64,000 nucleotides of DNA from Psammoneis japonica. Its lineage: Eukaryota. Location of the stretch: positions 496,001 through 560,000 of the forward strand of contig QPGO01000002.1 of assembly GCA_008632985.1 (NCBI GenBank), in the 5' to 3' direction. Both the position numbers and the translations under genes were made by a program. This document shows positions 4,999 through 57,251 of the stretch, in pieces. Each line of letters starts with the position of its first letter. The stretch's first letter is position 1. Below the pieces are notes generated by a model. The model saw only the letters and a program-made list of their open reading frames with translations, was not told where the DNA came from and did not search any database.

Positions 4999-5169
4999 GA
5001 AAACAGGACTCTTGGCGTCTTTTTGTCTCGTTAGAGATAGGGAAGGAGGTGTGCGTAGCTGTATAAATTTTGTATTTGAATTAGTTATCATTTCAGCTTA
5101 GACAATGCTTTTGTTTGTGAGGAAGAGCAAAGCAAGGCAGTGGGAGATTTCGAGATCGCCGCACTAAAC

Positions 5170-6270
5170 ATCATCGCTCATTTGGGTGATGTGGCAAACA
5201 ACGAGGTGGCATTTGCATGCATCAATGTCTGGTCCTGGCTAGACAGGACAACAAGAAGGTTGAGATCACTCTCCAGAACCAGGTCAGCACCTCAGTGACA
5301 CAACCCTTGCACTTCTTCTGCTGGCTCGCTCATCTCAGCAGCATGAACAATCATGTTCAGATCTCTGCCTCACATCCAGGCTTCCATTTGATGAAAGCAC
5401 ATTTGTGCACAGGCGGCCATTGTTGGCATGAAACAGGCACCTTCAGAGTGTGACACACACACCGGCTCTGATGGCCCTGCTGCTGCAACAAGAACGCTTT
5501 GCTGCCCGCCTCTGCTTTGTGCTCCTCTCTGTGCACCATCTTCAGCAGCCTCTTTGGAAAGGACAAAGTGCCGCTCTTTTGTCAAAATCTTCATTGTTGC
5601 CAGTCATTGATTTTGTTTGTGATCTCTGCATTGCCGCTGCAGAGCGCCTCAAAGAGCCCACGGTGCCCCCCTGCACAGGAGGAGATGTTCACACACATTT
5701 CTTTTTCTCCCTGTGTGTGTGAAAAGGCCTGTTCCAGCTCCAGGTGATCCGCTTTTCATCACGAGAGAGGCCGATTTTCTGCGCAGTTTGGCGTGTTGAA
5801 CTCCTTCAGTTTTGATCGTTTCGAAAATCAAAAGGCAAGTGTGCACCCAAAAATGCATGTAAAGTGTGCACTTGCCCCTTGATTTGGCAAAAAACGGGTT
5901 TTGAAAAAGTTCAATGTGCCAAATGCACAAATTGCCAAATGATTGGAATCGAACCCGCGCGGATCACCTGGAGCTGGAACAGGCCAAAAGCCCATGTGGC
6001 CTCCAACCAATGACAAGAAAGCCATCAACTTGACCAAGATTGCAGCAGTTCTGGTTGACTTCAATGAGTGGCATCTCAACTCAACCTTCCACGCATGCAG
6101 GCCAGCAGCGGCGCCCTCCCTCCCAACACTTTCGGGCTGACACCCCGCCAACTGCCAATCCATGTAGCCAGGGCCACCTCACTCATGAGATGGGGCAAGC
6201 AACCAGAACACAGCGCCATGGGCTCTGCACAAGATTGTGCCAAAGCCGATGATTTGGTTTGAATTTGATG
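5170..6270. repeat. Decayed repeat block, TpA-depleted
   Basis: Only about 3 TpA in 1.1 kb, TG/CA-rich, contains the MITE, no credible ORF. Confidence 0.6.
5726..5985. mobile_element. 260-bp MITE with perfect 27-bp TIRs, Tourist/PIF-Harbinger-like
   Basis: GGCCTGTTCCAGCTCCAGGTGATCCGC at 5726-5752 and its exact reverse complement at 5959-5985. AAAA on both flanks (possible target duplication). No coding capacity. Confidence 0.8.
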
Positions 6271-10339: not shown

Positions 10340-11960
10340 CCATGCTTCTTGAGCATTCCTGCTCACCGCACATGCACATCTCATCTTTTCAACTCCTTTT
10401 GTGAAGTTGCCGCCATCACCAGCGAATGTTCTACAGCTCGATGACGTTTCAGCTTAAGATGTGGCAGCAGCAAATCAAAGCCTTGCCATTGATTTTGCCA
10501 AGTCTTTTGTGCAAGAGGGGAAAAAAGACACAGACCTTCTCCCAGATGAGGCCAACACAAACATTGACAATCATTGTCATCGTGGGCATCATTTCACTGG
10601 CGGCAAAGAAGATCCGATTGCGGTGAAGACGTTCATTTTCTGGCTGCAAATGGGCCACCTGGGTGCCATCACATGTCTCAGGGACATTGCGTGCCTTCTT
10701 CTGCCTGTGGTGCAGAACACCCATTTTAGCTCATGGCAGCAACATGTTCATTGTCCCCCCTGCAAACTGGCTGCTTCCAAATGAGCCTGGCCCCACTCAT
10801 GGTGATGATGATCTGCTTGGTCGCTCTTGTGTTCCTCCATGAGAAGCTTGTGATTGTGATCACAAAAGTCACAATTTGTGTCAAAAGCAAGGTTGCCAGT
10901 TGACTTTGCTTGATCCAAACAGCCGGTCACCTTGTTGGAACTCAGCTGTTCTTTGCCATTTTCTTCACGACCTTGACATCCGACAAAAATGTGACCCCGT
11001 GCTTGGTGTGGCTGTTGATGGGTCCACCTTGGCAGTGCACTTGCTGAGCAACAGTGTGGCCAATTTGTGATGCTTGGAGTGTGGATTGCACGGGACTCTT
11101 CTTGCAGCTCTGGCACTTCCTTGTCAGCCACGCACCTCCTTTGCAAAGACAAAGGTGAGGGCCCATTTGCTGTGCCCGCAATCATGAGGGTTCCCAACCC
11201 AAAATTCTCACCACCTCTTAAAGTGATGCCACAACCACTGACAACATTGAAGGCGCCACCTGTCACACCACCATGAGCGAACCTGAGTGCCTGAGTTGGA
11301 AATCGCGCATTCTGCAAAGCAGTTGCCAGAGATTCCTCTCATTTTCTGTTCTTCCACCATTTTCTTGTCACACAGTTGCTGGGCTTGTTGTTGTTCTTTG
11401 ATTCTAAAATCTTCAGCACATTGTGAGCGCCCAGCAAGAAAGCCCGCATTTCCTCAAAAGCCTGTGCCGACAGGGCTGCCTTGTCAGAGTGGCTGTGTCT
11501 GTTTTTGCAGCACTGCCGCGGCAACATGATGACTCTCTCTCTCTCACTGCTCATCAGAAGCCACAAGCAGTGAGAGAAAGCGCTGATGGAGAAAGAAGCA
11601 CAAGAGGCGATTGGTGTGCTGCATCGTTGAAACAAACCACAAACCATCATGGTGAGAAAGTAAGAAACGAATGCGGTCGGCGGTCGGAGTTCAGAGTGCC
11701 GAAGTGCATGGCGAATTCGCGCGATTTGGCGGGTCCTGCTGTGACGCGTGCATCGTCACACTTCGTCACAAGCATGACCAGGCATGACAACACACACGTC
11801 ATCATTGTTCGTCACTCATGTGTGGTTCCAACTTTGGCAACATTGCAGTGCAGTGCAGCATCTAGCCCTGCAGCACTCAATGTTGGATTGCAGTCTAGAT
11901 GCACAGACTCTACAGCACGCTGACTTTGGCGATCAATTGCATGTCATCACGCGTCACCTC
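10340..11960. repeat. Decayed repeat/TE block, TpA-depleted
   Basis: About 9 TpA in 1.6 kb, only Cys/His-rich overlapping junk ORFs. Family not identifiable. Confidence 0.55.
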
Positions 11961-15037: not shown

Positions 15038-15304
15038 TGAGACAGTCCGTGGTAATGGCGTTGGACGTTTGAACGGCGACGCATCTATCATCATTGCTCT
15101 TGCGATGATCATTTTTCATCCACAGACGACAGACGCACAGAGCACAGGATTCTTCAAAGATGCGATCTGCGGCTGCGACGTCACCAAAAGGGTGCGGATG
15201 GAATTACAGACGGTGCCGAACCCCGTCTTGCTTGCAAGCGCTTGGCTGGCTTGTACCGGCAGGAGTACATTGCATGTTGTACAATCGAATGCGTTGGCAC
15301 TCGC

Positions 15305-16470
15305 ATTGTGACGACCTCAGCAGTGCTCGGGATGCGCTTCTTGGACGTGGCTCCTCATCTTCTAGAGTGGCTCTTCCATCATCTCTTCTTTCAATCTCTC
15401 AGTCTGGCCTTGTTTTCCTTTTTCGCCTGCTTTCTTTGCCCTTCTTGGTGACCACATTGGCAGCATCGGCTGCCACCACTTTCTTGTTCACACCTTCTCC
15501 TGCGGTTCCTCCCAGGTGCTTCCTCTTCTGCCCCACCTCCTCCTCCCCCAAGCCTCCTTGGAGCAATCTCCCACTGACTTTCAAAACTCCAGCCCTTCCT
15601 TCTCAGCCTGCCAGCTCTCCCTTCTTTCTCCGACTGGCCTCCTCACCCAAGTCGACATTCTTGCCCAGCTGGCAGCGTCTCTCTCCAGACCATCCCAGCT
15701 CTTCTCTCCACACTTCCACCCCTCAATCCTGGGCCACCCAGCTCCTCAGCTTCAACTTTGGCCTTGCCAAATCCAATCACCTTGCTGCTTTCAACCCTCC
15801 CCAGCTCTCCCCCCAAAAATTTTTCACTCACTCATCTGTCCGCACATCCGGCCCCCTTTCTTCTCTGCGGCCCACCCCTCTTCTCTCCACCACATGCCAC
15901 ACTCTGATTTTGTTCTCTCCGACTCTCCTGCTCCACAATTCCTGGCTTTTGCTCAAACAATGCACCACACTGATGGTGGTGACATTGTGCATTTGTTTGA
16001 ATCTCACTGCTCTCGCAATCCTTTCAAAAAAAAGTTCTTCAACAAGCCACAATGACTTGATGAACAGTGTGTTGGCCGCTGCATTGCATCAACTGCAACT
16101 CAGGAGCTCTCTTTTGTTTTCATTTTGAGAGAGTGATTTTTGGATCTCTGCAAGTTTTTGAAAAATTTTGTTGACATTGAAGATCGCTGACAGCTTTTGA
16201 TTGATGAGAGCCCCTGTGGGCAGAATGCCAAGGAACAAGCACTGGTGAAGATGGGGCCACTGTTGAGCCCATGAGTTGAGGCCTCAGTCACTGCCTCTCA
16301 GCCCCTTTCTCATTGTTCAAGTGCATGTGCAAGTGGAATGCTGATTGCACAAAGAGCACCTCATGTGATCAAAAAGATTGGCACAAAACAGAAAGTGGGT
16401 TGTTTATCAGCACACTGAAACGAAGCGTTGACAAAAGTGGCGCAACATCATCATCAACTTGCACCTGTGA
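15305..16470. repeat. Decayed repeat block, essentially TpA-free
   Basis: No TpA found between 15365 and 16404; CpG also scarce. Confidence 0.6.
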
Positions 16471-18829: not shown

Positions 18830-21800
18830 CAGCTAGAGTGACGTTTGGTTGATTTCAAATGTTTGGATTTTATGGACACGGCTCCAAGACAGTTGGCAGA
18901 CCAGCAGTTTCTCGAGTGACAATGGGACTGTTCTGTTGCTTTCGCAATGTGGTGGTTCCCATTTGTGCCAGCAGGGCTGTGGACACGTTTCTTGGGTTTT
19001 TTGCGCACACTCTTTTTGAGCCATGCAACATGCACAGCTTCCTCTGCAGCTTGAGGGGTTGCCCAGCCATCTGCGGGACCCAACTTTTGTGTTTCTTCTC
19101 TTGACTTCTTTGGCCCCCATTTGTTGAGAGACCCTCCCATTGTCCAAGTGTTGGAGCATTGGGGTGCGAGGCATTTTGGGAGGACAGGCAGGCAATGTTC
19201 TTCTTGCAGCGAAAGATTGCTGACGATTGCGGTGGATGACATTGGCAGTTTGCACTCACAAACTGTCTGTGAATGTGGTTTTTGTGCTCACTTTTTAGCT
19301 TCTTCTGCACCAGAACAACACGACAACATGGCAATGGCATCAGACATGTGTTTGCAATTTGTGCGGTGGTGAGAGTTTTTTCTGGTGAGACCAATGACAC
19401 AAACTGGTTGGCAAACCTTGAAACTCCAACAGACTGAGTCACACTCTCTCTAGCCAAGTTAGTCAATGGGCATTTCCTTTGCTCTTTGGATGCCAGCCAG
19501 CCCCAGGGCTCCATGTGACATGGGCTTGCAAAATTCTGCATGCAAGCTCTGTGGCTGTCACACTGGAAAATGAAGATTTTGGTCTTTGACATCCAAACAA
19601 ATGACCAACTTTGCAGCACAATTGCATCTCCAACAGGAATCTCTCAAAAATGACACATGTGATGGCCACACAAATTGCTTCAGAATGTCTGCAGAATCTG
19701 CAGCAAGTTTTTGCACCAAAGCTGTTGTGTGTCTTCTCACAATTTGTGCAAACACAGACTTGGCTGCTGTGGTCAGATCAGGCGCATCCTCCCTGCAAAT
19801 GAGTTGTTTTGATGTGCAACTGATTAGATGACAGTCAATGGTCCATTTTTTGCAAAGGTGAAACTCGCCAGTGGCAGAAATGTGGACAATTTGACATTTT
19901 TCTTGGCACTGGTGGTCTGCACAGTTTCTGTGCCATGACTGTGCAGCACGAAAGGTTGCTGTTGTCATGCTCAAAAATTTTGAGAATTTGCCTGCACTGC
20001 ACACCATTTGGAGATGTTTAAAATGGTTTTGTGAAAAAAATGTCAAACATTGTTGAATGGATGGCCCAGCAACTGCACTGCAAAACATTCAAAGAGCCGC
20101 CAAAATCACGCAAAAATGCACGTGGTCTCACCTGGAGCTGGAGCATGTTCATTGACCAAGCCATGCTCCACACTTGTGATGTCTTGCAAAAAGCTGAGCT
20201 TTCAAAGCTGCAAGTTACAGTTTTTGGACAAGTGACAAGCCTTTGGCTGCACTTTTCTTTTTTCTTGTAGTGCTGTCATGTGTGGCCGGGCTGGCTTGCA
20301 CTTGTTTTCACAACAACCACACACCTCATCCATTGCCTTGAGAGTTTCCAGTGCTCAGCACACTTTTCTGATTTCCTGAGAGCTCTTCCCATGATCTGGA
20401 GTGTGCACTTGCTTTGTTGGCAGCAAAAGTGCAGCGTGTTGAGCCTGCCAAGTGTTGGGGCATTGTGGCACACCCTGCCCCTCAACCCTTTGCCCGCTCC
20501 TGTGGCACTTGCAACAGCAGGGTGTTTGAGGCAGCATTGGTGCCCACACAGTTTTGCTGTTTCTTGCCAACACTGAAGTTTTTTGCACAAGAAGGTCCCA
20601 GTGAGTTTCCAGGGCTCAAGGCTGGCTGGTGCATTTTCTGGGAGAGGGTCTTGCTCATGGCATCAACGCAGTTGTGAGCTGGCTTCTTCCAGGAACTGTG
20701 GTTGCCTCCTGAGGAACAAGGCAGCCCCGCCAAGAACCATCAAGTTGCAAGTCGCTGCACAGCTCTTTTGGAACCTTTGGACTCCTTCAAGTGCTCACTT
20801 TTTTTTTTTGTTGTCACATTTTCTGCCAAACAGAAACACATGTCTCATCACTGCAGAGAAAGCTGCATGGGGCCACAGCACATGATGTCAAAACTTGAAG
20901 TTGTGCCAAATGCAGTGTGCAGCAAACAGCAAAAAGAAACTGCACCTCCCACCATGGGGCATGTTTGTTTGCATGTGACCATGCAGCTGATCAAGTTGAG
21001 AGTGCACCACATCTCATGTCAACAAGACAGTGCTGGACTTGCAGTGCAAGTGTTCCAGTGTTCCATTTCTTGTTTTCTGTTGACCACTCCATTGTGCTTG
21101 GACACACCATCAATTGCTGTGAACTCTCACTGCCACACACAAGACTGCAGCTGCTGGGGCTCATTTTCACTGTGTTGATCACAGTGCTGCTTGTGCTCCA
21201 AGGCACAACAAGTGTGTGCGCCAAAAGCAAAACTTCATTTTCTGATGTGGTGGGTGCAGACAATGATGTTTTAATTTTCCTGAGCAAGGAAATTGTTGCA
21301 TGAACAATGTGCCATGTGAGCACCAAGCTCAAGTGAGAGGGGGGCAGCTTGTTGGATGTTGCAAACAGTTGTTGGCAGATTTGTGTCAATGAGGAGGGTG
21401 GTTTGATGGCAACAACCAAATGGCTTTCGTTCAATGGAGTGGGGTTGGTTGCTGGATGTTTGATTTTCTCCTGCTCCTGTCTCTTCTTGTTGTTCAGGGA
21501 ATTTTTTGGGCATTCTTGAAAAGCAACAGCTCTTGTTGCAACCACAACACCTGGTGCTCCCCATGGTGTGTCTTGCTGCACAGCTCAACTGTGTGGTGCA
21601 GCATGCACAGCGTGCTTTGTCATGGCCATGGGGCAGTGTGGGAAGCCAAACAATGCCATGGAAGGCAGCTCCAAACTGCCATCTGCAGCCAGATCTAGAG
21701 TCAGCTCAATGAGCTCATTGCAAATCTGCACTCAAAGGTTTGGAGCAGCTGCTGCCCTTTGCACCTTTTCCTCACATCTGCATGCCATCTGCACAGGAGT

Positions 21801-24480
21801 CAAATTCACCACCAGCAGAGTTCGACACTCTGACTGGCCAGACACCCAACAAGTGAGCACTGTCCTCTGTTGACTCCACCCCTGTGCAAGGGCTGCCATG
21901 GGATGCAGGTGGGTGTGATGTGTGACGACATCATCACATGCATTGAGTTGCACATGTGCACATTCACACTGATGATCACATGTCATCAAGCAATGACTCC
22001 CATCCCACAGCACCCCTGATTTTCTGACCATCAAACACTGGGGGCACAGCATTTGTCCATTTTTCACCCATTTTCACACCACCTGAACAAGCATGTCACA
22101 TCAACTCCACCATGACGGCATCTCCTCCATCATCACCAACAACTTGCCAGGACTCTGTTCCCACTGAAATTGTTAAAGTTGACACTGCTGTGAGAGGTGA
22201 GCCTGTTGCTCAGGCTGTTGTGTGCCTCACACATCCCAAACAAGAGTGCACAAACTCACACTTTTTGTTTTCACACTCCACTGCCTCCTCACCTCCCACA
22301 GGTGATGCCCCCTGTGGTGATGCTGTTGCACCTGCCCTTGACATGGCAGGTGTTGTTCAATGTGTTTTCCTCCTTCGCCCAATTGCAAAATTGTCAAGTG
22401 GTGCTGACTTGCTCACACCTCACACTGCAGTGCCTCCCACATGTGATGGGGCCCTGGCAATGCCATCCGTGGCCCCATGCCTCCCACCGGTGACACCACT
22501 GCCACCCACTCCCCTGCTCCAACACCTGCCTGTGATGCCACCCCTCCCATCGGTGTTTCCACTGTGCCCATTGTGGAGGACAATGCTGTTGATCCAGTTG
22601 TTGTGACAACAACAGACACACTCAAGGGACTTGCTTTGCTTCAAACTCAGATGATTGCAAACACTGCAGAAAAATCAACAAAACCAATGGAAACCATGAC
22701 CAATTTGGCAGCATGTGAGTCAAGTTGGGGGCTGCTTTGTTGGTTCAAGTGTTTTGTCATTTGGTCCTTGCAGAAAAGATGGTCATCATGCAGTGCCATG
22801 CTTTGCAGAAATGACATGGAGGATGAGTCCACATGCAAAAGATTTGACTCAGCTGCAGCTGGAGGAAGTTTACAAAGATGAAGAAGATGTTAAACTTGAA
22901 AATTCTTTGACAGGTTGGACAATGTGATTTCATGCAAGAACTGGTCAAGATGAAGTTCCACAATGATGACAATGCAGCGCAGTCTCTGTCAACAACAAAA
23001 AGCAGTTTCTCTTTTAACAAGAAGAGCTTCTCCAGAAAGAGTGCTGTGCCTGTCATCACATGTCAGATGCAAGTGTGTCCACCCAAAGCAAAAGAAAGCT
23101 TGTGTCTCTAACTCAACATCAGATGCACTCATTGCAGCTCCATTTTATTGACCAGGCAGTGTGCATCTTGATCATGAAGGGCATGCTGGGCTTGCTGGTG
23201 ACAGAGTTCCAATGGGGTCTCAGCACATTTGCCACACAGTTTCTTTGTCATTTGGGAAACATGACAGCCCAAGAAACAACACTGCCTTTGTTGGTGGGTG
23301 CAGCAGGAACAGTGTTGGGTGTGCCAGTTGCAGGAAAGGTGGTGACTGGGGTGCAAGCTGCTGCAGAGCTGTGCCCAAGACCCAAGACTGTCTGACACCA
23401 TCGTGGGTGCTGAAAGCCACCAGAGCTGCACCCAACAGCATCATTCGATTCCATCACATCTGCCCTCATGCTCGGTGGGTGGCACAACCAGCACTGGGGT
23501 GCATGCACTGGAGCATGAGAAAACATCGACTGTGGGTTTTTTTGGAGCACAACAGCTGCAGATTCATCCTCACCCACTCTGTCAAAATGGGTGCAGCAGC
23601 AGCAGCAGCAGCGCATGGGTGCACTGGTCCTGTGACTGAAAGGCTGACAATGTGCTGGCATTTGTGACAGTGTCTGTGGCAGGTGCTGCTGCAAGAGAAA
23701 ATCAGTGCCAGTTTGCAGCGCATCATTTTGGCTGTGTTTGGCACAAGAGAGGCAAAGCAACAACGTTGCCTCTTGCACCAGGCGCATTGGGAAGAACAGC
23801 ATCGGGTGCGGCACTTGTGGGGCATGGAGCTGCGGTGTTGTCATTCATGACAGAAGCTGTGCCAGGTGCCAGAGCATGAGAAATGGAGTGTCTGCAAATG
23901 AGCTCTAATTTCAGAAGCAGCAGGCGCACGACAGAAACAGTTGCGACATTGCCCCTGCGACACACCAGAGTCATCATTGACAGGAGCATCAATGGGCGCC
24001 ACATCATGGGAAGGTGTTGATGATGAATCGCTTGACATCATCATGGTGGACTGTTGTTGATGCATGGTTTTTGTGTGTTGCACAAGAGAGGGAAAATGGC
24101 AAAGTGCCGCCCCTGGCGGTGGTGGCTGTTCTCAGTTTGGTGGCCAGAGAGGCAGAAAAAGGGAGAGAGTGTGGATCAGGATTTTCCCTGATGTTCTTGT
24201 GAGCATTGTTTGTGCACAAATGCTGAATTTCGGTGAATGCCAACATGTGAAAATTTTGATGACATCCAAATTGCATCACCGCGCCATCACACCCATGCTC
24301 TTCCCTTGCGTGAGGGGTGTGTTGACTCCAGGGACAACTCTGTGATCACCTGCTCTGGGTGCCCAGTGTTTGGCCACATCAACGGGCCCGCCTGACAATT
24401 TTTCTCATGGGAGTCCCCCGCCCCTCTCACCAGAAGTGGAGATAAAGGCAGAGGCTTTCTTTGTGGGGCTCTCGTCTCTC
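18830..24480. repeat. Large block of decayed TE remnants, TpA- and CpG-depleted
   Basis: About 16 TpA in 5.5 kb, dense overlapping Cys/His-rich ORFs. A partial copy of the MITE TIR (TCACCTGGAGCTGGA) lies near 20128-20142. Confidence 0.65.
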
Positions 24481-42899: not shown

Positions 42900-45800
42900 T
42901 GCAAAGCAGCCTCTTTCAGCACAGTTTGTGGGGCAACAAGCGGTGGCAGCAGCAGCACATCAAAGCTCTGGTGGTGTGAAATGCTGAGAGAAGCAACACC
43001 AAGTTGTGCAAGACTGCATGTTTCATGTGGAAGGATGCCAGCAAGTGCAAAAAGTGCGGCAGCATGCTCTCAGTGGAAAAGGGCAAGATCAAGCCAACAA
43101 GCTGTGTGAGTGGTGAGCAGAAGACAGCGCACAAGCACAAAGCAACTGTCGCAAAAAAACAAAGTCCAACAATAAGGTCCATGCCACAGAGAAAGCAGTT
43201 GACACTGAGCAACCTGCCTGCTCAAGCCAATGCCAAGCTGGAGACCAAGCTCAAGGACTTAAAAAGGCCGGGCATGAAACCCACAGGAACGCAAGAGGCT
43301 TGTGCAGGTGCCCAGTTTTGGGCACAAGGCTTGCAAAAAACCTCCAGCTGAGGAACAAATGGCTGCACCCATGCACAGGAGCAGGGTCCAGTCTGAGGGC
43401 AATTGGGCGGCGACAGAATGTCCAGCAGCACTGTGAAAATTGTGCAAACATTCTGCGCGAGCTTGAGCCCTGCATGACAATGGCCACTTTTGGTGCCATG
43501 TGGCTTCTGCGCCACCCCTTCATGCAAGTTGTGCCAATTTTGCACAGTGTCACTCCAGCTGGGTCATGTTTGTTTGTGCAGAACTTGAGCAGCCAACTGC
43601 GGGCGTGGTGCAAAGGGCCAGCATGCTTTCAGTGCAGCATGCTTTGGCATGATTTGCTGCACCCCATCCAGAATTGCATGCTGCAGCTGCTCCTGTGATG
43701 AGATCAGTCAAGCAATGGAAGCAACCAAGCCAGAGCATTGCTTGGACTTCTTGTACACAAAAGCGCCACATTCACAAACTTGAAGCACCGTGGCTGGCAC
43801 ATCTGGAATTTGTCCTGAGGTCAGTTGCCCTTTTTGTCACAGGTTTCAATTGTGTGAGCCAAAATTTTCCTCTTGTCATTTGATGAGCAGATCAGTTTCT
43901 GCTTTCTGTTGTGCTCATGCCACCACCTGGCACAATGGTCAATGGACAAAATTGAAAAATTCTGCTCTCACAGCATGTTCTTGTTTCTCCTTCACAGAAA
44001 GGACACATGAAACATTTGACAAAAAAGTGAACTTTTTGCAGCCAGAGCTTGCCCACTTGTTGAAGTTTCTTTTCAGAGTTGTTGGAAAAACATGTCACTT
44101 GGCCCATGTTGTCAGCCACAAGTGTTTGTTTTGCCTCACATTTTTTGAAGTGTCTGTGCAATCCATTGGCCATTCTCTCTAAAGTCTGCAGCCAACTCTG
44201 GGTGGTTGAGGGATCCTGTCTCGCAGAGCCTGTTGACTTCATGGCACACAACTGCTTCTCATGTGGTGGATTTTTTGCTCCACTTTCTGAAGAGCATTTA
44301 ATCAAGCAACATCTCTTGCTCAAGCAAAGGCATGCACAGCTGCTGTTGCTGTGCATTGCATCTGGGCCTTTTGTCTGACATGCCATCTTGGTCACAGTTG
44401 CTGCATGCTTGCACTCACATTGAAGCACCAGCAAATTTTCTAGGAGAAATGATGTGTGCACTGCAGAGCCAATGTTTTGCATCACAGAACATCAGCACTG
44501 GCTCTAGCTGGGCCACTCAATGGCCTTTCCAGGAATGTCTTGTCCAGCCCACATCCCCCAGCAATGTCAAAAATGCACCAGCAGGAGTGTCTCAGACTTT
44601 TTCATGTGACCCCCTTTCTGCTTCAGCCATTTGGTGCATGTGCACAAGCTGTTGCAGTCACGCAATTTGCTGCCACATTGGCCGTTGCAAATTTTTGAAC
44701 ACAACATTGTGCCTCACAACAGCTGGCTTCAATGTCTCTCCAGTTGGTCATGAAATGCAGCATCTGCAGCATTTTCATCAAGTGGACTGAATTTTAGAAT
44801 TCTTGTCATCTTGTGTGTGCTGGCATGTGCTGCAAGGTTGTGGTGCACATCACTGCCATCGTTGAGCAGCAAAAGTTCTGAAAAATGCTTGTGGTGTACA
44901 TTTTCAACTGCACGAGGAGCAATGTCCTGCAACCACTTGGTGAATGGCACAGAGAACCAGCAGAGAGCAAGCAATGCTGGCATTCTGTGGTGCTGGCATG
45001 GCCAGCCAACTGAGAAGCATCTGCACATGCACGGGGCAACGTTGCTGCAACACCTGCACAGGAATGGGGTCCAAGCACTCAGACAGTGACAGATGAGTCC
45101 AGCACCATGGGAGTTGCAAGAACATTCTGTGCACAACTCACAGCCATGCATGAGGCAGCAAAACCACATTTGATGCTTCCTGTGCAAATCCATCCCCTCA
45201 CACAAGATGCGCCAATTGCGGGTGAACATCTGGGTCATGACTTGCCTGTGTGAAACTCCTGTGGGCAATGGCAGGCTTGCAAGGTGCTTTCACATGATCA
45301 GCTGCCCCTGCTGGTGGGTGCCAGCCTGCAGATGCAGGACGGCAGCCTTGCTGTGCAATCCAGGGTTGCTCGCTGCACAGTGGCACAAGATTGTCATTGT
45401 CCAAACCAACTGGCACTGCACACAATTGTTCAGGCAAACAACTCTTGGCAAACACCCATCCACTCCAACTCATCAGCTGGAGCTGCTGCTGATGACATGG
45501 CCAGCAATGATCTGGGCTTGTGTTTTGATGCTTGTGGTGCCACTGGCACCAATTTTGTCGTGCACACCAAGCAGCACAAACTTTTGAAAGATGCACCAAT
45601 CTGCACAGCTGCCACTGCATGGGGTGTGGGTTGACCCAAAGTCAGGTCAAGAACCTCTCACCTGCTGTGCCAGCCCACAAGACCACTTTAAAGCCAGGTG
45701 AAATTTTGCTCTGGTGCCCCAGCCAACTGTGTCCAAATGGTTTGAGGCTGTTCTGTGCCAGTTTGACAAGAGCAGTGCTCCTCACTCATCCACTCTCTTC

Positions 45801-46700
45801 CCCAGCTCAAAAGTCACAACCCTGCTGCTGCTGCTGCAACCAGAGGGAGTTTACCAGCTGGCATTTGAATTTGACAAACCTGCTCATGTGGATTTGGACA
45901 ATCTGTCATCATGACTGGAGCTGACATTGCTGCCAAAGTGGGAGCCCTTGTTGATGCTTCTTTTCTGCAAAAGGAAGGAGATGTCCAAAGTGATGGTGGC
46001 ATGGAATGAGGAGGATGGTTGCACCCCAGAACAGATCAGGGAAGGCAAGAACCCAAATGTGGTTGGCTGTCAAAAGAAAAAATGTCATTTGGGTGGAAGA
46101 AAATGGCCACCAACTTCAAAATGAAAAAGCCAAACAGGTCTTGTCACTTGACTGCGACACAGAGTCAGGAGCCTCCATCATGGGCAATGACAAGAATTTC
46201 ACAGCCAGTGTGGTGTGGAAATGGTGGAACAGACACAGGTGCGTGCCGACCTTGTGGTGGCTTGGGACAAAACCTGGATGCCCATGGAGCGCGGTCAATG
46301 AGATTGCAATGCTGTTTGTCCAATGGATTTATCCGGTCAGTTGCCCGGCAGTTGGAGGCACGATGTTTGAAGAAGTTGCGAGAGGCACACGATGCATCCA
46401 GTTTCCAAGAGCATCTCTTGACGATCGCCTGGACAGGATGTGCGATGCAGAAGCTGACATGCCATTAGAACCAGAATAGATGTGCCAAGCTCAGCCGTGC
46501 CTGAACTTCGCCTCTAATCCCGTCAGCATCAAATTGTCTCCTCCCCTTCAGCACCGACATGGAGGTTGAAGGCCTTCTCTTCTTTCCCTGTCCTCATGGG
46601 GTTTGGTCGATTCCGACTGCTAAACCGCCTGTGCATTGATTGGGCTTCTCATGGGCTTTAGAACTGACTGGTTGGAGAGCGGACGTGTGCCTCCAACGAA
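42900..46700. repeat. Decayed TE remnants, TpA- and CpG-depleted
   Basis: About 12 TpA in 42900-46340, junk Cys/His-rich ORFs. Family not identifiable. Confidence 0.6.
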
Positions 46701-47038
46701 ATTAAAGTGAGTGTGACCGCATTTCCAGACCTTGACGGGGAATGAGAGGAGCTCGGTCAAATCGGATGAAAAGCAACAGGTCAACGCATCGCAGGGTGTC
46801 TGGGATGACCAGTCCCATCCAAATGAGGCATGTGCCGTGCCTTGACCAATTCATCCCGTAACCACTGCAGATTTTCTCGATGCCATTGACGCGTTTCTGT
46901 TTTGCTGACAAATTTCGAAGCTCTTTGCCGCCGTCCGTTTGGGAGAATGACAAAGCGTAGTCATTCATTGGCATTTTGGCATGCACGACGGCATCCGATC
47001 ACAGCGATGTTCCCAACATACGGACACACCGCAAAAAT

Positions 47039-47990
47039 CTAGCGCGTGCATCTCCAGCAAATCTCGTTCTGTGCATGCGAGCCATCCAGGCTGCTCCGAT
47101 GCACTTCTTGATTTCCTGCCTCGGGCATTGTGCATCTCCGACCTGCATGCGTGCTCTCAGCAAACTCAACAGCGACATCCCGTGCTTGGCATGCCTGAAA
47201 CGAAGCTACCACCAACCCCCATGTGGCAATAACCAGCACAGACACGCACCCTGCAAACGCGTCAGACTTGCAAATTCCTCCTGTTTCCACTGTCTTCCCA
47301 AACACGTCCACTCGGAGCATCTCACGCTCCCATGCCAAGGGAACTGTCCCCGTCCAAATTGCGAGCGTCACCGCATCAACAAGCAAGAGAGCGACCAACG
47401 GCGCCATTGGGTTTGTGAAATGTTTTGTTTGTCTGCCATGTCATGCTGAATGACGCAGAAAAGGCAAGAGCAAAACCAAGGATGAACAGCTAAGGTGTGC
47501 TTTGACATGCAAGGTCACAACCAGCTTTGCTCTCAATTTTGTCATCGAAACTCAAAGGAAGGACACATGCAAGATTGCGCAACCGAAACATTGCATGAGC
47601 CCTGTCTTCACTTTATGTGGCAAAACACAGACGGCTGTTGCATCATACAGCACCGCATGTGAAAAGCAAGAAAATGGACTGTGACGCCTTGACGACTCTG
47701 CCCATTCTGCAGCGGGTGGTCCAGACCCCGAATGCAATGAGAAAGAAGAATTATGATGGCGGAAAGGGTAAAGCCAAGGCCACGCAGCACCCCGTTCAGG
47801 CAGCTGTAATCCACCTGGACCTTTGGCAGAGGCGGAGACATGTTGGTTGTTCCATCGCAGTAAACACATGGGGCCAAACTACGCCACGTTCCCATCTCGA
47901 ATGATGTCTGCCCGACAGCATCAAACATGACATTTTCGGTTTCAGTGTCTTTTTGGCAATGAAGTTGAGCAACTGGTAGCATGCGTGGTC
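47039..47990 (-). pseudogene. Class C (GABA-B-like, 7tm_3) GPCR fragment
   Basis: LAIWTGTVPLAWERE..VETGGICKS..QACQARDVAVEFAES and LRGLGFTLSAIIILLS, broken by frameshifts and stops. Confidence 0.65.
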
Positions 47991-48559
47991 AAATCAAGAA
48001 TCCCTGTTGTCGGGTCAATGGAAAGGACCCTCAGCACCCACAAACCTTTGCATTGACAGGATGCTCTTAATGGGAGACGCCGTCAAAGTGAGTGACGGTG
48101 TCTGATGCAGCACAAGCAGCCAATCCCATGGAGATTGTGGAATCATGCAGAAAGATCCCCAGATCTGGAGACTTGAACATTCTTTCGACTGAAAGCTGAT
48201 CTCCACGTGATCGGGATGGTTCTGGAGCTCTTACATTCGAAACCAATGCATCTAGCGCACGAGTTCCTGGCATCCTGGCTGGACAAAGAGCGTGGAACTT
48301 GTTCCACGAGCCACTTGCAGGATGTAGGCATCTGAGAAAAATCCAGACACAGTCAGTTCCAGCAATCCCCTGGCGACAGCAAACCAAGAGTGTCAGGTGG
48401 TTTACCGGTGGCAGCTTCTAAGAGAGAGATTCCGCCTGGAACGTCGCAGCAAGTGTTGCCCCATGGTTGTGTGTGTGGTGGTTTGTGTGGTTTGCCTCGT
48501 ACAGTGCTGCACTGCACAAAGTGCGAAACAGCGATCAACATTGTGCAAAAAACATGTCT

Positions 48560-48805
48560 CTCCTCGCACTCAAGTTTAGATGGAGACGGACTGACTCAAA
48601 CCGACCTCGCTCGATGACTGTGACCTCTCGCTGGATCCGCGACGGAAGTGGGGCACTTCCGACTCAAGATGACTCGGTCTAGTCTTCTGACTGTGACCGG
48701 TCAAACTTCGGTTTTCTTTTCTCTCACTTTTCCAGCTTTGTTGGAACAGGAACCCTGATCATCGTGACTGGATCACTCAAGCTCGGAAAAGCATTCTTCT
48801 TTTTA
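48560..48805 (+). repeat. Split direct repeat A1 (246 bp)
   Basis: Aligns ungapped to 57006-57251 with differences at 4 sites. Confidence 0.95.
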
Positions 48806-48817
48806 GTCTCCCTCATC

Positions 48818-51282
48818 ATGTCGGATTTCTTCGCCTCGGGTATCTCGGATGATGCGTTCGTTGATTTAGCTCGTCAACTGGAGTCGGATGTTGTCTCGCC
48901 TTTCTCGTCGAGCTCTCCGGCGGCTCCCTCTCCTCAGGCTCGCCCCTCTGGGGCTGCGCGTCAGGGGGGGGGTCACGAGGGCTTAAATCCTCGAGGCACA
49001 AGCGATGACATTTCGGGGGGTTGTGGTCATCCCCAGTCGGACATTGACAGGGCAGAGTTGGGGGAAGTCATTTCCCACCCTCCAGGAACTCACGTTTTGG
49101 AAGGAGACGCATCCCGCCCGGTTCAGAGGGAAACCCGCTCGTCTCGGGTTGGTTTCTTTGGGCGGGATTTGTCAGGTGACATCGGAGGCACGGTCGAGTC
49201 GGAGAGGGAAGGTGCGTCTTCTTCATCCTCGCATGTGCCTCGTCATTGAATCACCTGGCTGGAGGCTGTTGGGGCACCCCGGTGCTTGGGGATCAAGGGC
49301 GGGGAGGAGCCACCTTCTGTCTCAAGAAGGCAAGCGAGTGCAATGTGAGGCACAAGGGTGGCAAGATGAGCATTCCGGCGTCGGGTGTGGCAGTGATCCT
49401 CAAGTCCCCGGACACGGGTTTTTGTCAACCCATCCTAAGCGGTGGGAACATGTCTGGTGGATTGTTGGTCAAGTGGGAAGCCGAGTCGGATGCGCCAGCC
49501 GGTTGGCGGCAGAAATTCTTGGTGCTGGGCAATGGTGAACCTTTTTCCACCAAGGACGAGGTCGAACCCGCCCTGAGGGAGTGTGAAAGGGCGGCCGAGT
49601 TCAAGACACTGGCTCGGAAGCAGTGGCCGGAACCGTCAACCCTTCAAGAGGATGCCGTGCTGGAGGGGTTCACGCCATGCGAGAAACGAATGCTCTCCAC
49701 CCCGGCGCAGTTCCCAGCGGCAAACAAAAGTCCGTCCGCGTTGGCCCGTGTGGTCCAGTCGACCGAGGATGGGTTGAGGCAAGCCGGGGAAGTGCTGGCC
49801 GACTTTGGCGACAAAGCTGGCAGGCGATTCCACGCTGCGGAGTCTGTGATTGAGATTCTGAGCCGGAAGCTGGATCAGCTCGACGCGTCTGTCGGGGAAC
49901 CGACCCAGGGGTTTGATGGGGCTCTTCTTGCCCCTGCTCTTTGGGGTGCGCTGGCAAACGTTGCATCCCGGGAAGCCGGAACCCAATCTCCGGGCCCAGT
50001 CGAGCATGTCACACAAGTGGAGACGGGGTGGCGAAGCCAATCTAACAATCTGGTGAGAACTTTCAACGAGAAGTTCCAACACATGCAAGATCGGATGGGA
50101 TCGACGGCTGGCCGCACGGATCTGGAAAACCTGAAGAACAATGTGCTTCGGGTGTGCACACAGCTCACTTCAAAGGTCAGGTCAATCAAGCCCCAGTTTG
50201 GTTCGGGGTTTGCACCTCACGGCGCTTCATTCGATCAAGGGTCCGTGGAAGCAAGGGTCACACGCCTAGACCGCGCTGTGAGTGAGTTACGTGCAAAGTC
50301 AGACAAGTCTGCCATTGAGTTCTCAGGGGTTGGCGCATCATCCTACGAGGAGTGTCAAGCCTGGATGACACAGCCTTTCCCCTCGAGGGCATGCGGGTGC
50401 TCAACTGATGTCGTCTTGCTCTTGGACCGAATTAAGGGGATCGAGCCCACCGCTCTGCATCACTTTTTGTCTCAGTGGGCCAAGCGAATGAGTGCGAACA
50501 TCGCTGCCGAGGAAGACGCGTGAACTCTGGCGGGTTTCCAGTGTCGCATGCCTCGGATCTTCGACTCAGGATCTGTGAAGTCGTCTCAGACCTTGGGTTT
50601 GCACCCCTCTCACTTGGACAAAATCGAGACCCACGAACACTGGTCTTCGGGGAATGTCGGAACAAAGCACTTCATCGAGGGGAAGATCGCCACAATGGAG
50701 AGCGACATCATGGAAGACATTGGCCAACGCATCAGACCGGGAACATTTGAAAGTCAGGTGGTCCGGGACGCATTGTCGAAATCGGTGGCATTTCTTCGGG
50801 CGCTAATTCAGTTTATGGACTCTACTTGTGCATCACTCACCGACCTGAGCAAGTTCTCCAAGAAGCAAGCGTGGTCCTTGATGACTAAATTGACTCACCG
50901 CATTTTCGAGGACATCCACAAGGCGCGCTCCGGGGTTTTTACCTCCATTTCCGGGACGGACCCAGATGCAGTGTGCAGCAAGATTTTGTGGGCGGTGTTT
51001 TGGACCCACGATGTTGTGGCAGAGCACACCTCTCTAGGATTTACCGACCACCCTTCTATGGCGTCGGAACACGTCAAGTTTCTGGCCACAAACTCGGGAT
51101 TCGAGGTGGCAACTGATTTGCAATCTTCGGTGCTGACGCTAACGGAGAAAGCCAAGAATGCCAGCTCAGAGGCTGAGTCAGCCCAGGCCCGAGGCGACTC
51201 GGCGCACGTCGAGCTGGGCAAATTGCGAACGGAAATTAAGGACCTGACTCGTCGGCTCAAGGCTTTGGAGAGCAAGAAGTGA
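48818..51282 (+). pseudogene. ORF1 (gag-like) of the YR retrotransposon, disrupted
   Basis: ATG 13 bp after A1. A frameshift before 49246 and an in-frame TGA at 50521-50523. Cys/His knuckle-like FCLKKASECNVRH and C-terminal coiled coil. Confidence 0.7.
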
Positions 51283-51354
51283 AATTCATGGGGAACGGAG
51301 GATGCGGGGGAGGGCCAGGTCTCGTTCGACAGGCCGAATAACCTGAGGCACATC

Positions 51355-54300
51355 ATGCGGGGCAGAAAGGCCTTCTGTTTTCAAGGATCTTGCTTGATTC
51401 TCGCCTCCGGTCCCCCAATCTGGCTCTTGTCCTTGCGACCAAAGGAATGGCCTGCTGTTTGTCACTGCTGCGACGACTCCCACTGGGGTTCTCCATCAGT
51501 GGAACTGTTTCGGAACCAATTGAATGCCTCCTTGGCACGGGTCTCATGGGCAAGGGTTGAACAACTGACCAGGCGGGTTGATGTTGTGTTCGTGTCGGGG
51601 CCACCTTCGTTCCTTGAGTCCGCAGCTCATGCAATGCGGTCGGGATCTTTGATCATGATCCCTGTGGGAGCGTTTTCGCGTCGCAGTCTTCTGGGTTTGA
51701 ACCAGCTACAGCGGCGGGACATTGCACATGCGGTGGTGGGCGGTGTCACTTCCTTTCGGACTGCACTCTTCTGGCGGGGGGTTCCTGCTCCGGTCTTTGA
51801 TGGAGGCCTGCGGCGGTCCATTGGGCACATCATCGACTGTGAGCCACCCGGGTCACCATCGCCACAACACCCGAGTGGGGAATTTTACAATGAGGGCGAC
51901 CATCTCAACCCACAGTTTCTGACCCGACCAGTCGTGCACCCATCGCATCGGTCGCCGACAGGTTGGGTCACCCGCACACTGTCTGTGGATGAGACATTGG
52001 CGGCCTGGGATTTTCGTTTCCGCACGCCTCAGGTGCATCAGGCTTTCGAGCGGGGATTTCCTCTTGTTCCGTTGAATCTCCTCACACTTTTTGTGGAGGC
52101 ATTTGTTGATCACACGCCCCGGAATTCGTCACAACCTGGGGGCGTGGTGTGTGACAACACGGAGGTCGGGGTCCCGGTCTGCCAGGCCAGAACGTGGCTG
52201 CCGACTCTCGGACGCTGCTTACCCCACACTTGGATCGACGCACCCCTCACAACGGCGAAAGCTGCAAAGGGGGATGCGGCAGCCCCTCCTTTCCGGTTGT
52301 GGGATAAGAGGATCACTTTGATTTTCCCGGGGTCTGGCGAGGCTTTGCCAGCCCTTCGGGACTTGGCGCACCGGTGGTGGCGGCGAAAGACCCTTCAGTC
52401 TTTTCTGGGCTATCTGCGCCGGGAGCATGGTCCGACTTGGGTCGCCATGCTGGCGACACAACGCCGACGTTTTGGGGATGCCACTGGCGTCTTCAGGGGG
52501 GGGTTTGCCGCCACCCTCCACTCCCACGCTTGCTTCTAGACGCACACCTTGGGACTGAGGTGTTGGCGCAAGTGTTGGACAGCTCCTGGTGGAGTTGGGA
52601 CCGAGGTTCGTCTCTTTTGTTCTGGCAGTGGCCCACTCTGGAACAGCGGGTGGGGGCTCGAGATGGGATCCAGACATTTGTCAAGGGCCCTCTCCCTCGC
52701 AATCGCCGACGGCAGAGAATCCGGGGGTCCGAGCACGAGATTCTTAGGATGGTGGACAAGATTCAAAAGGTCCGAGACCAAGGTTACATCCATTGTGGGA
52801 GGGTGGTTAGTCTAACTGATTGTTTTTGGGTCCCAAAAACCGTCCGTGTGGAACCCCAGAATGGTCGCTTGGTGGAAATCGTTGAAGACGTGCGAATGGT
52901 TTACAACGGAACCTCCTCGGGTTTAAACGACGCCCTCTGGGCACCCTCATTTTTCTTGCCCACTCCTGCGTTGGTTCTGGGGTGCATGACTCGTGCCACC
53001 TTTTCAGTGGATCTCGACCCAGGCGACATGTTTTTAAACTTCTTCATGGATCCCAACATTCGGCCACATGCGGGGATCGACTTAACGCCTCTCAAGCCAC
53101 ATCTCGGGTCCCAGGAGTCGATCTCGACGGGCACGCCCTGGTTCGAGCGTTGGAACCGTTTGTTTGTGGGGATGCGGCCCAGCCCTTGCTTGGCGGTGAG
53201 GGCATTTTGTTGGGCCGATGAGATTGCCAGAGGCGATCCAAACCGACTCTCCAATGTCATGGGATACGACAAGCTGCTCCTAAACTCACCAGGGGATCCC
53301 AACTTCCAGACGGAGAAACCGTTCGTGATGAAGTGGAATTCTCGTCGCAAGGAAATTGCTGGCGACATAAAAACATTCGTTGATGACTTGTGCGGAATGG
53401 GGGCTAATGAGGAATCCGCCTGGCAAGTTGCTCACCAAATGGCCTCGCGGTTGCAGTGTCTTGGACTGCAGAATGCTGCCCGGAAGGTGCGCCCCCCCTC
53501 GCAGGTTGAGACCGGAGCCTGGGCTGGCGCCATTTTCCGAGTTATCGATGGGGATGTCACTCAGTCAGTTTCCCAGGCCAAATGGGATAAAGCCAAGGGT
53601 GTCATTGCAGAACTGCTTGGTTTTTACGCCGGGCGTCCGGGGGGCTTCCTCCCTGCATTTGACTTTGAGGATCTGGAGCGGAAGAGGGGATTTCCAGTCC
53701 ACCTTGCGATGACTTGCCCCTTTTTAACACCATTCCTTGGAGGAATCCATTTGACCCTCGACTCCTGGCGACCAAATCGAAAGAAGGATGGTTGGGCGAT
53801 GACTGCGAAAGAATTCGCAAGCTGGATTCACCACCTCGCTGAGAAGCAGGGCCTTGACCCGTCAGAGGTTGCTGAGGGGCTAAGGGATCAACCGCCCCCT
53901 CCGCAGGTCACGGCTGTCCCTCGTTTGTTCATGGATTTAACTGCCATGTCCCGCGTCACGGAGTCTCCGACCCCTTCTGCGGTCATCATCCAGTCCTCAA
54001 AAATTGTCACTGTCCTCTGTGGCTTTGGGGATGCATCTGGAAAAGGCCTTGGGACCTCCCTGGAAGCAGCGGACGGAACCATTGTCTTTTGGGTCGGTGT
54101 GTGGGGCGATGATGATCTGGGGAACTCCTCCAACTGGAAAGAGTTGTCCAACACGGTGGACGCCATCCAAGAACTTGGGGAGCAGGGGGAATTGACCGGT
54201 GCGTGTTTGTTCTTTTTTGTGGACAACTCAGTTGCTGAAATGGCTTGGTGCAAGGGCACCTCGACCAGCCCTCTGCTGCTTGAGCAGGTCATTTGCTTGA

Positions 54301-56442: not shown

Positions 56443-56555
56443 CTTGGGACGGTCGCGAGCCCTTGGCAATGCTGGGCCTCCGGAGGACAGTCTTCCAGCT
56501 TCCTGCTCTCCGGATCGACATTTTTGGTGGCCACTGCCCAGGATTCTCATCGGGG

Positions 56556-57008: not shown

Positions 57009-57251
57009 CTCGCACTCAAGTTTAGATGGAGACGGACTGACTCAAACCGACCTCGCTCGATGACTGTGACCTCTCGCTGGATCCGCGACGGAAGCAGGGT
57101 GCTTCCGACTCAAGATGACTCGGTCCAGTCTTCTGACTGTGACCGGTCAAACTTCGGTTTTCTTTTCTCTCACTTTTCCAGCTTTGTTGGAACAGGAACC
57201 CTGATCATCGTGACTGGACCACTCAAGCTCGGAAAAGCATTCTTCTTTTTA
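57006..57251 (+). repeat. Split direct repeat A2
   Basis: Copy of 48560-48805; overlaps B1 by CTC. Confidence 0.95.

What the first reader, a model, noticed from the sequence alone, without database searches (positions are those of the whole stretch)
18900..24440. Surviving TpA sites reveal the mutator's context preference (YTAR spared, RTAY eliminated)
Seen: of about 16 TpA left in 5.5 kb, 12 are Y-TA-R (TTAA, TTAG, CTAG, CTAA), 4 are mixed and none is R-TA-Y. Roughly 25/50/25% would be expected without preference. The same skew appears at 10340-11960 and 42900-46340, with two GTAC exceptions in the latter. Inference: the edited strand prefers TA followed by a pyrimidine (TAC/TAT) and/or preceded by a purine. 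Established: bacterial TadA edits the A in UACG, and TadA-derived DNA base editors favour TA contexts, so a TadA/ADAT-fold DNA adenine deaminase is a testable but unproven candidate.
Basis: partly seen in the sequence, partly recalled or inferred. Interest (0 to 1): 0.72.

Follow-up and report, generated by a model that had tools for sequence, protein, structure and literature searches.

The report
Context rule of TpA-erasing mutator
In this diatom-like genome, blocks of repeat DNA have had nearly every TA changed to TG or CA, and the few TA left show that the process works fastest when the A is followed by T or C, which gives a sequence fingerprint for a still unidentified natural DNA mutator.

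Summary
18900-24440 holds 16 TpA: 12 YTAR, 4 mixed, 0 RTAY. The three named blocks together hold 25/10/2.

It recurs in a separate 17.6-kb stretch (46341-64000), which is TA-poor but CpG-normal: 68/79/15. It also holds against 26 unmutated environmental relatives of the retroelement inside that stretch (p 3.5e-9).

A four-parameter model, one hazard per strand set by the base 3' of the A, fits all ten contexts. Relative rates are about T 1: C 0.6: G 0.24: A under 0.1 at two doses. The second 3' base also matters; the third does not.

At conserved Tyr codons of the retroelement, His (the opposite-strand product) appears only after a purine, and Tyr survives only after a pyrimidine (exact p 0.017).

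The enzyme is untested. The only natural ADAT2 with a measured DNA context prefers GAA. TpA hypermutation is in print for Bigelowiella natans only. This scan already found the same rule on other pieces of this genome.

The parts
18872..24442 (.). Block B2, the finding's region. TpA o/e is 0.03-0.07, CpG o/e 0.08-0.24 and TpG/CpA o/e 1.84-2.07. It holds 16 TpA: 12 YTAR, 4 mixed, 0 RTAY. Its origin is unknown.
   Evidence: No Pfam family at E<=0.001 in its 29 tested ORFs (four weak matches at E 0.003-0.04, all below the curated cut-offs). No similarity to other parts of the window.
10340..11960 (.). Block B1, TA- and CG-poor. It holds 9 TpA: 6 YTAR, 3 mixed, 0 RTAY.
42900..46340 (.). Block B3, TA- and CG-poor. 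It holds 12 TpA: 7 YTAR, 3 mixed, 2 RTAY (both GTAC).
46341..64000 (.). Stretch A3. It is TA-poor (o/e 0.03-0.24) with near-normal CpG (o/e 0.6-0.98). It holds 162 TpA: 68 YTAR, 79 mixed, 15 RTAY. It serves as an independent replicate at a lower dose.
   Evidence: Many similar contigs of run X1 lie on it.
48560..57724 (+). Probable retroelement of about 9 kb with repeated ends (48560-48812 = 57006-57258; 56556-57008 = 57269-57724). It holds 68 TpA: 34 YTAR, 28 mixed, 6 RTAY.
51283..52539 (+). First homologous ORF of the element (N-terminal part of its relatives). Three conserved Tyr columns.
52308..55223 (+). 971-aa ORF with, by eye, reverse-transcriptase-like (FVDD) and RNase-H-like (DAS) motifs. 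It has 240 relatives at E<=1e-5, some from named diatoms. Twelve conserved Tyr columns.
55162..56439 (+). Third ORF of the element, with 2377 relatives at E<=0.001. Five conserved Tyr columns.
56556..57724 (+). Internal repeat pair (56556-57008 and 57269-57724). Its differences are mostly TG opposite CA or TA opposite TG/CA: 14 inferred ancestral TpA sites.
15281..16404 (.). Small tract with a single TpA (CTAG at 15363).
5166..6164 (.). Small TA-poor tract with two TpA (CTAG at 5240, GTAA at 5860).

Best explanation
The surviving TpA are the slow-reacting residue of a local, DNA-level mutational process that turns TpA into TpG or CpA.

Shown:
- The chance that a TpA is lost depends on its flanks.
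- Counted on the strand that carries the A, the hazard rises with the 3' neighbour in the order A < G < C < T, about 0.02-0.09 : 0.24 : 0.6 : 1.
- A T at the second 3' position raises the hazard further and an A lowers it. The third position has no effect.
- YTAR sites therefore last longest, because both of their strands read TAR. RTAY sites go first, because both strands read TAY. GTAC outlasts ATAT because C is a weaker 3' neighbour than T.
- 'Spared' is relative: YTAR sites are also hit.

Supported by fewer data: each strand is hit on its own. At YTAY sites only the strand reading TAY is changed.

Inferred, not shown: the chemistry is deamination of adenine to hypoxanthine in a 5'-T-A-Y context by an enzyme that reads one strand, and this enzyme is directed to repeat or foreign DNA.
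For: Survivors:
- H blocks 25/10/2 and A3 68/79/15, against 209/681/455 in TA-normal DNA.
- The result holds with the block's own composition as null.
- It holds with TG-flank composition of the same blocks as an internal control: TA/(TA+TG) in the H blocks is 6.8% before A, 4.1% before G, 1.4% before C and 0.5% before T, against 29-40% in normal DNA.
- It holds with 26 of 80 fetched environmental relatives of the retroelement (those with GC>=0.47; 1005/2445/1459) as a family baseline (p 3.5e-9).

Model:
- Hazards by 3' neighbour A/C/G/T are 0.28/1.99/0.75/3.26 in H (deviance 6.7, 6 df, p 0.35).
- They are 0.03/1.04/0.44/1.78 in A3 (deviance 9.6, p 0.14).
- They are 0.13/1.04/0.45/1.83 with the family baseline (deviance 7.6, p 0.27).
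- The C:T and G:T ratios are nearly the same at the two doses.
- Likelihood-ratio tests: +1 chi2 142.5 (p 1e-30), +2 chi2 44.9 (p 1e-9), +3 p 0.69, and no extra RTAY term (p 0.94). With the family baseline: +1 p 2.6e-9, +2 p 0.0014, +3 p 0.19.

Direction:
- There are 20 alignment columns in which at least half of the relatives have Tyr.
- After a pyrimidine: 5 kept, 6 Cys, 0 His, 2 other.
- After a purine: 0 kept, 3 Cys, 3 His, 1 other.
- Exact 2x3 p is 0.017.
- Products in H: YTGY+RCAR 804 against YCAY+RTGR 557, compared with 1360 against 1246 in normal DNA (p 4e-5).

In situ action: the repeat pairs give 18 inferred ancestral TpA, 10 of them now TG in one copy and CA in the other.
Against: - The ancestry of the three heavy blocks is unknown, so their evidence comes from survivors and proxies only.
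- Survival data do not separate a per-strand (additive) model from a whole-site (multiplicative) model. Deviances are 6.7 against 8.9 in H and 9.6 against 6.5 in A3.
- The Tyr test rests on 17 informative codons. At the strictest cut (70% Tyr) only 8 columns remain and p is 1.
- The product asymmetry in A3 is only p 0.057.
- The orientation of mixed survivors shows no link with local TG/CA bias.
- YTAR sites do mutate: 10 of 16 copies in the repeat pairs.
- T and C at +1 can interconvert through later transitions, so Y against R is firmer than T against C.
- Sequence cannot tell A>G from T>C on the partner strand.
- No enzyme was examined.
Confidence: 0.85

Rival explanations
1. The chemistry acts on the thymine, not the adenine. 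An example would be oxidation or another modification of T in 5'-R-T-A that then pairs as C. The rule would then read 'purine before the T'.
For: TpA is its own reverse complement, so every count here fits equally if it is read on the other strand. That oxidised thymines can mispair with G is recalled and comes from no call.
Against: Nothing in the sequence speaks against it. The one experimental report of TpA hypermutation proposes adenine deamination but does not show it (10.64898/2026.01.13.699255, sections 7, 9 and passages).
Confidence: 0.2
2. The mutator recognises the double-stranded four-base site as a whole (RTAY best, YTAR worst) and then changes either strand.
For: A multiplicative whole-site model fits survival as well as the per-strand model.
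Against: At Tyr codons preceded by a pyrimidine the product is Cys in 6 of 6 cases, never His (two-sided p 0.03; 7 of 7 at the 30% cut). After a purine it is 3 Cys and 3 His. The H blocks hold 804 YTGY+RCAR against 557 YCAY+RTGR.
Confidence: 0.08
3. The TpA now present are not survivors. They are new TpA made later by ordinary C>T transitions at CpA/TpG, or they are inherited from an ancestor with unusual composition.
For: The heavy blocks are old, since CpG has decayed as well, so some TpA must be new.
Against: The precursors NTGN+NCAN in the blocks are 20% YTAR, 55% mixed and 25% RTAY, against 68/27/5% observed (p 3e-12). GCAG is common, yet CTAC/GTAG is rare (3 of 37). Unmutated relatives of the retroelement hold 20/50/30%. 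The repeat pairs show ancestral GTAC, GTAT and ATAC sites that were lost.
Confidence: 0.03
4. The context pattern reflects protection, not enzyme preference. TpA between T runs and A runs would be shielded by DNA shape, bound protein or a base modification.
For: TA-AA and TA-GA flanks are the most spared, and A at +2 is enriched among survivors (61% in H against 26% in normal DNA).
Against: The graded order T > C > G > A at +1, with the same ratios at two doses, and the flank-dependent choice of strand at Tyr codons are simpler to explain as substrate preference. I ran no direct test.
Confidence: 0.07

Closest known systems
TpA-restricted hypermutation of integrated giant-virus and virophage DNA in Bigelowiella natans (Mettrop et al., bioRxiv 10.64898/2026.01.13.699255; abstract, sections 7 and 9 and passages read)
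   Same: Both show almost only A>G and T>C changes, all at TpA, giving TpG/CpA. Both are confined to discrete regions of foreign or repeat-like DNA. In both, TpA-poor, TpG/CpA-rich clusters appear in the genome. Adenine deamination is proposed for both and proven for neither.
   Different: That organism is a chlorarachniophyte; this genome is diatom-like. There the mutations were seen arising in culture lines; here only the accumulated result is visible. The main text does not contain the words context, trinucleotide, tetranucleotide or flanking, so the 3'-neighbour rule is not described there.
Repeat-induced point mutation (RIP) of Neurospora and other ascomycetes (recalled, no paper read here)
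   Same: Both are local, dinucleotide-directed transition hypermutation of repeated DNA that leaves neighbouring genes intact.
   Different: RIP changes C to T, mainly at CpA, and so makes TpA and stop codons. This process removes TpA and cannot make a stop codon.
TadA/ADAT2-ADAT3 tRNA adenosine deaminases and their DNA-editing forms (PMC10661471 and PMC10354150, passages read)
   Same: Both give A-to-I chemistry, which is read as A>G. The target A34 follows U33 in tRNA (recalled), which matches the 5' T here. TadA's own site has C after the A (review table: 5'ACG).
   Different: Amphioxus ADAT2 on DNA prefers 5'GAA for adenine, which is wrong on both sides. Evolved base editors are described as broadly context-compatible for adenine. 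The best 3' neighbour here is T, not C. No deaminase gene could be looked for.
ADAR editing (PMC10661471, table read)
   Same: Both are A-to-I with a preference for 5' U.
   Different: ADAR acts on double-stranded RNA and is listed with the context 5'UAG. Here TAG is among the spared contexts.

Membership tests
TpA-restricted A:T>G:C hypermutation of foreign/repeat DNA (B. natans type) | Changes fall on TpA and give TpG or CpA | tested here: met
   In the 56556/57269 repeat pair, 22 of 26 mismatch columns lie at 14 inferred TpA sites; a further 2 are CpG and 2 are other transitions. At conserved Tyr codons, 12 of 17 are now Cys or His. TpA o/e is 0.03-0.07 with TpG/CpA o/e about 2.
TpA-restricted A:T>G:C hypermutation of foreign/repeat DNA (B. 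natans type) | Confined to discrete regions, with neighbouring DNA normal | tested here: met
   The borders are sharp, at 18871/19296 and 23906/24443-24548.
TpA-restricted A:T>G:C hypermutation of foreign/repeat DNA (B. natans type) | The targets are foreign or repeated DNA | tested here: inconclusive
   A3 holds a retroelement with many similar contigs in run X1. The origin of B1, B2 and B3 could not be found.
TpA-restricted A:T>G:C hypermutation of foreign/repeat DNA (B. natans type) | Mutations arise de novo at a greatly raised rate in culture lines | not testable with these tools
   Only one study's contigs hold the stretch, and they are probably the source sample.
TadA/ADAT2-type polynucleotide adenine deaminase as the agent | An HxE-PCxxC deaminase is encoded by the genome and is required | not testable with these tools
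   No genome is held for the window. No deaminase family appeared among the window ORFs scanned.
TadA/ADAT2-type polynucleotide adenine deaminase as the agent | A 5' T/U before the target A | tested here: met
   The loss is specific to TpA, and CpA accumulates.
TadA/ADAT2-type polynucleotide adenine deaminase as the agent | The 3' context matches that measured for a natural DNA-editing ADAT2 (5'GAA) | tested here: not met
   A at +1 is the most spared neighbour here. The GAA preference is from PMC10354150.
TadA/ADAT2-type polynucleotide adenine deaminase as the agent | The 3' context matches TadA's own site (A-C-G) | tested here: inconclusive
   C at +1 is favoured but ranks second to T. G at +2 is not favoured.
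Fungal RIP | C>T at CpA, producing TpA | tested here: not met
   The direction is the reverse: TpA is lost and CpA/TpG is gained.
ADAR-type editing | A 3' G is preferred (5'UAG) | tested here: not met
   TAG is spared relative to TAC and TAT. The 5'UAG context is from the review table.

The most novel reading that the evidence does not exclude
Diatoms carry a natural, repeat-directed DNA adenine deaminase that works on one strand at a time and reads a 5'-T-A-Y-(T) motif. This motif is unlike that of any natural DNA adenine editor measured so far. The process would be a second, chemically opposite counterpart of RIP, shared with or convergent on the process seen in Bigelowiella.
Probability: 0.4. 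Interest if true: 0.88.

Novelty: new member of a known kind. Interest (0 to 1): 0.64.

Why it matters
- A motif with measured relative rates is a concrete test for any candidate enzyme. A candidate must change TAT and TAC much faster than TAG and TAA, on single strands, with a small effect of the next base.
- The rule lets the mutational dose, and so the relative age, of a repeat be estimated from which contexts remain.
- It explains why these tracts are full of long spurious ORFs. TpA loss removes TAA and TAG and never makes a stop codon.
- The same tabulation can be run on the published Bigelowiella mutations to ask whether the two processes are the same.
- A natural A:T>G:C DNA editor with a defined motif would also interest people who build base editors.

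Tried and rejected
- The whole genome is not held, so I could do no genome-wide count and no search for deaminase genes.
- Pfam on 57 ORFs of the TA-poor blocks gave nothing above noise. An Atlas search of the longest B2 ORF gave no usable hit. Self-comparison found no similarity among the blocks. What B1, B2 and B3 once were stays unknown.
- Pfam on the retroelement's ORFs and four relatives gave no family. Its reverse-transcriptase-like and RNase-H-like motifs are my reading by eye.
- The ORF 49180-50523 had no relatives. A 'longer' search with the third ORF gave only 2.
- Sequencing runs: one study only, kept as contigs and probably the source sample. Laying it showed many similar contigs, with transitions at 402 of 477 listed places of change in X1. 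Only 40 of 483 differences were printed, too few for context statistics.
- I tested whether mixed survivors (YTAY against RTAR) follow the local TG/CA bias. There was no association (p 0.47). At a 500-base scale the heavy blocks have TG about equal to CA.
- Survival data could not separate the additive from the multiplicative model.
- None of the 80 fetched environmental relatives of the element is TA-stripped (TpA o/e 0.40-0.77). The fetch favours well-preserved copies, so this says little about other diatoms.
- A search for the 'YAC' preference of early base editors led to yeast artificial chromosomes in the paper I opened. That preference remains recalled only.
- Two full-text searches for a diatom report (listings and abstracts seen) found none. 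One hit opened for passages (PMC9258296) was irrelevant.
Full report
**What is there**

The window is diatom-like eukaryotic DNA. Relatives of one of its elements carry names from Fragilaria and Cylindrotheca. No whole genome is held.

A dinucleotide profile shows three blocks in which both TpA and CpG are nearly gone and TpG/CpA is at twice expectation. These are 10340-11960, 18872-24442 and 42900-46340 (TpA o/e 0.03-0.09 in their cores). There is also a long stretch, 46341-64000, where TpA is low (o/e 0.03-0.24) but CpG is near normal. I call the three blocks H and the long stretch A3. The borders of the finding's block are sharp: dense TpA up to 18871 and again from 24548, with a lone TpA at 24443.

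**The observation**

- 18900-24440 has 16 TpA: 12 YTAR, 4 mixed, 0 RTAY.
- 10340-11960 has 6/3/0.
- 42900-46340 has 7/3/2, and both RTAY sites are GTAC.

TA-normal DNA of the same window (33.9 kb, 1345 TpA) holds 209/681/455, or 16/51/34%. Against that, H (25/10/2) differs with p 5e-16.

Two other nulls give the same verdict. Against the blocks' own flanking-dinucleotide make-up (about 30/50/20), the finding's block alone gives p 2.8e-4 and H gives p 5e-6. Against the TG/CA tetranucleotides from which new TpA would arise by transition (20/55/25), H gives p 3e-12. That also rejects the idea that the TpA present are mostly new.

**Replication and a better baseline**

It holds 162 TpA: 68/79/15 (p 9e-19 against normal DNA).

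A3 contains a retroelement of about 9 kb (48560-57724) with repeated ends. It has three ORFs, and two of them have hundreds of relatives (240 at E<=1e-5; 2377 at E<=0.001). None matches a Pfam family. Contigs of the one public run that holds the stretch pile up on A3: 2216 pieces, most at 90-99% identity. At the 477 listed places of change, 402 are transitions. That fits a multicopy family, though contig depth is not a copy number.

I fetched 80 environmental relatives of the element. None is TA-stripped (TpA o/e 0.40-0.77). The 26 with GC of 0.47 or more hold 1005/2445/1459 TpA (20/50/30%). Against this family baseline the window's element (34/28/6) differs with p 3.5e-9.

Survival per context ranges widely. 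It is 0-6% for ATAT, ATAC/GTAT and ATAG/CTAT, and 52-63% for CTAA/TTAG, CTAG and TTAA. The contexts are far from equal.

**The rule**

I treated each TpA as two half-sites, one per strand, each described by the bases 3' of its A. A model with one hazard per strand, set by the first 3' base, fits all ten strand-symmetric contexts.

| Data set | Hazard for 3' A / C / G / T | Deviance (6 df) | p |
|---|---|---|---|
| H | 0.28 / 1.99 / 0.75 / 3.26 | 6.7 | 0.35 |
| A3 | 0.03 / 1.04 / 0.44 / 1.78 | 9.6 | 0.14 |
| Element, family baseline | 0.13 / 1.04 / 0.45 / 1.83 | 7.6 | 0.27 |

The C:T and G:T ratios are nearly the same at the two doses. The process therefore looks the same in old and young tracts, and H has had about 1.8 times the dose of A3. 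The two GTAC 'exceptions' follow from the rule, because C is a weaker 3' neighbour than T.

A case-control regression gives the following:
- A strong effect of the first 3' base (chi2 142.5, p 1e-30).
- A clear effect of the second (chi2 44.9, p 1e-9): T raises loss and A lowers it.
- No effect of the third (p 0.69).
- No extra term for RTAY (p 0.94).

With the family baseline the first two effects hold (p 2.6e-9 and 0.0014).

An internal control that uses only the blocks themselves gives the same order. TA/(TA+TG) in H is 6.8% before A, 4.1% before G, 1.4% before C and 0.5% before T, against 29-40% in normal DNA. TA-AA and TA-GA are the best-protected flanks.

**One strand at a time?**

Survival alone cannot tell a per-strand model from recognition of the whole four-base site. 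Both fit. Direction can tell them apart.

In the element's three ORFs there are 20 alignment columns where at least half of the relatives have Tyr (TAY, so the sense strand always reads TAY).

| Base before the Tyr codon | Tyr kept | Cys (sense-strand product) | His (opposite-strand product) | Other |
|---|---|---|---|---|
| Pyrimidine | 5 | 6 | 0 | 2 |
| Purine | 0 | 3 | 3 | 1 |

The exact 2x3 p is 0.017. It is 0.003 and 0.006 at looser cuts. At the strictest cut only 8 columns remain and there is no power. Transitions keep purine/pyrimidine class, so later changes to the flanks do not blur this test.

In H, YTGY+RCAR (the products expected from the favoured strand at mixed sites) number 804, against 557 YCAY+RTGR. 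In normal DNA the counts are 1360 against 1246 (p 4e-5). In A3 the same contrast is only p 0.057.

I take the per-strand reading as likely but resting on small numbers.

**Action in place, and limits of 'spared'**

The element's repeated ends give 18 inferred ancestral TpA. Ten are now TG in one copy and CA in the other, which means independent hits after the copies formed. TpA remains in 6 of 16 YTAR copies, 1 of 8 mixed copies and 2 of 12 RTAY copies. YTAR is therefore slowed, not immune. This small sample also misses sites where both copies ended alike.

**Mechanism and comparison**

The signature (TpA to TpG/CpA, local, in foreign or repeat DNA) matches the hypermutation seen arising in Bigelowiella natans culture lines. 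The authors of that work propose, but do not show, an ADAT2-like adenine deaminase (10.64898/2026.01.13.699255; abstract, sections 7 and 9 and passages read).

The edited tRNA A34 follows U33 (recalled), and a review table lists 5'ACG. It fits partly on the 3' side, where C is good but T is better. The one natural ADAT2 with a measured DNA context prefers GAA, and evolved base editors are described as broadly tolerant for adenine (PMC10354150, passages). The ADAR preference, listed as UAG, is the opposite of what is seen here.

Sequence cannot exclude chemistry on the thymine of the partner strand.

Two searches for a diatom report found none (listings and abstracts only). This scan has reported the same YTAR/TAY rule on several other pieces of this genome. 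New here are the fit of relative rates at two doses, the family baseline, the second-base effect tested against two baselines, and the Tyr-codon test of strand choice.

**Verdict**

The context inference is supported and sharpened. The enzyme is open. This is a new member of a kind of process known from a single preprint, with a motif that could identify the enzyme.

Noticed in passing
window 46341-64000 compared with 10340-11960, 18872-24442 and 42900-46340: TpA loss occurs without CpG loss in A3 (CpG o/e 0.6-0.98). No tract shows CpG loss without TpA loss. TpA erosion is therefore separate from CpG decay and faster.
   Followed up: partly
window H blocks (10340-11960, 18900-24440, 42900-46340): Surviving CpG show the opposite context skew to surviving TpA. 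RCGY is 4.1 per kb against 12.0 in normal DNA (34% left). YCGR is 2.0 against 13.7 (15% left).
   Followed up: no
window 48560-57724: A retroelement of about 9 kb belongs to a large family of diatoms and marine metagenomes and matches no Pfam family, in the window copy or in intact relatives. Its ends are repeated in an interleaved order (X at 48560 ... Z at 56556, X at 57006, Z at 57269), which differs from plain LTRs.
   Followed up: partly
window 56556-57008 compared with 57269-57724: There is a hint of strand-coordinated hits. At the 14 inferred TpA sites, copy 1 carries TG 10 times and CA twice, while copy 2 carries TG 3 times and CA 7 times. Sites where both copies ended alike are invisible, so this is not a fair test.
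   Followed up: partly
whole window, TA-poor tracts: TpA-to-TpG/CpA changes remove TAA and TAG and cannot create a stop codon. The tracts are therefore full of long overlapping ORFs in several frames (89 ORFs of 150 aa or more in the window). Unlike RIP, this process disables genes by missense changes only.
   Followed up: no
window 15281-16404: A 1.1-kb tract with one TpA is strongly C- and T-rich on the + strand (GC skew -0.30, AT skew -0.24). It has a 339-aa ORF without a Pfam match, and its nature is unclear.
   Followed up: no
window 58612-59147: A 234-base tandem repeat (two copies, 83% alike) and a 49-base unit present three times lie inside the TA-poor stretch.
   Followed up: no
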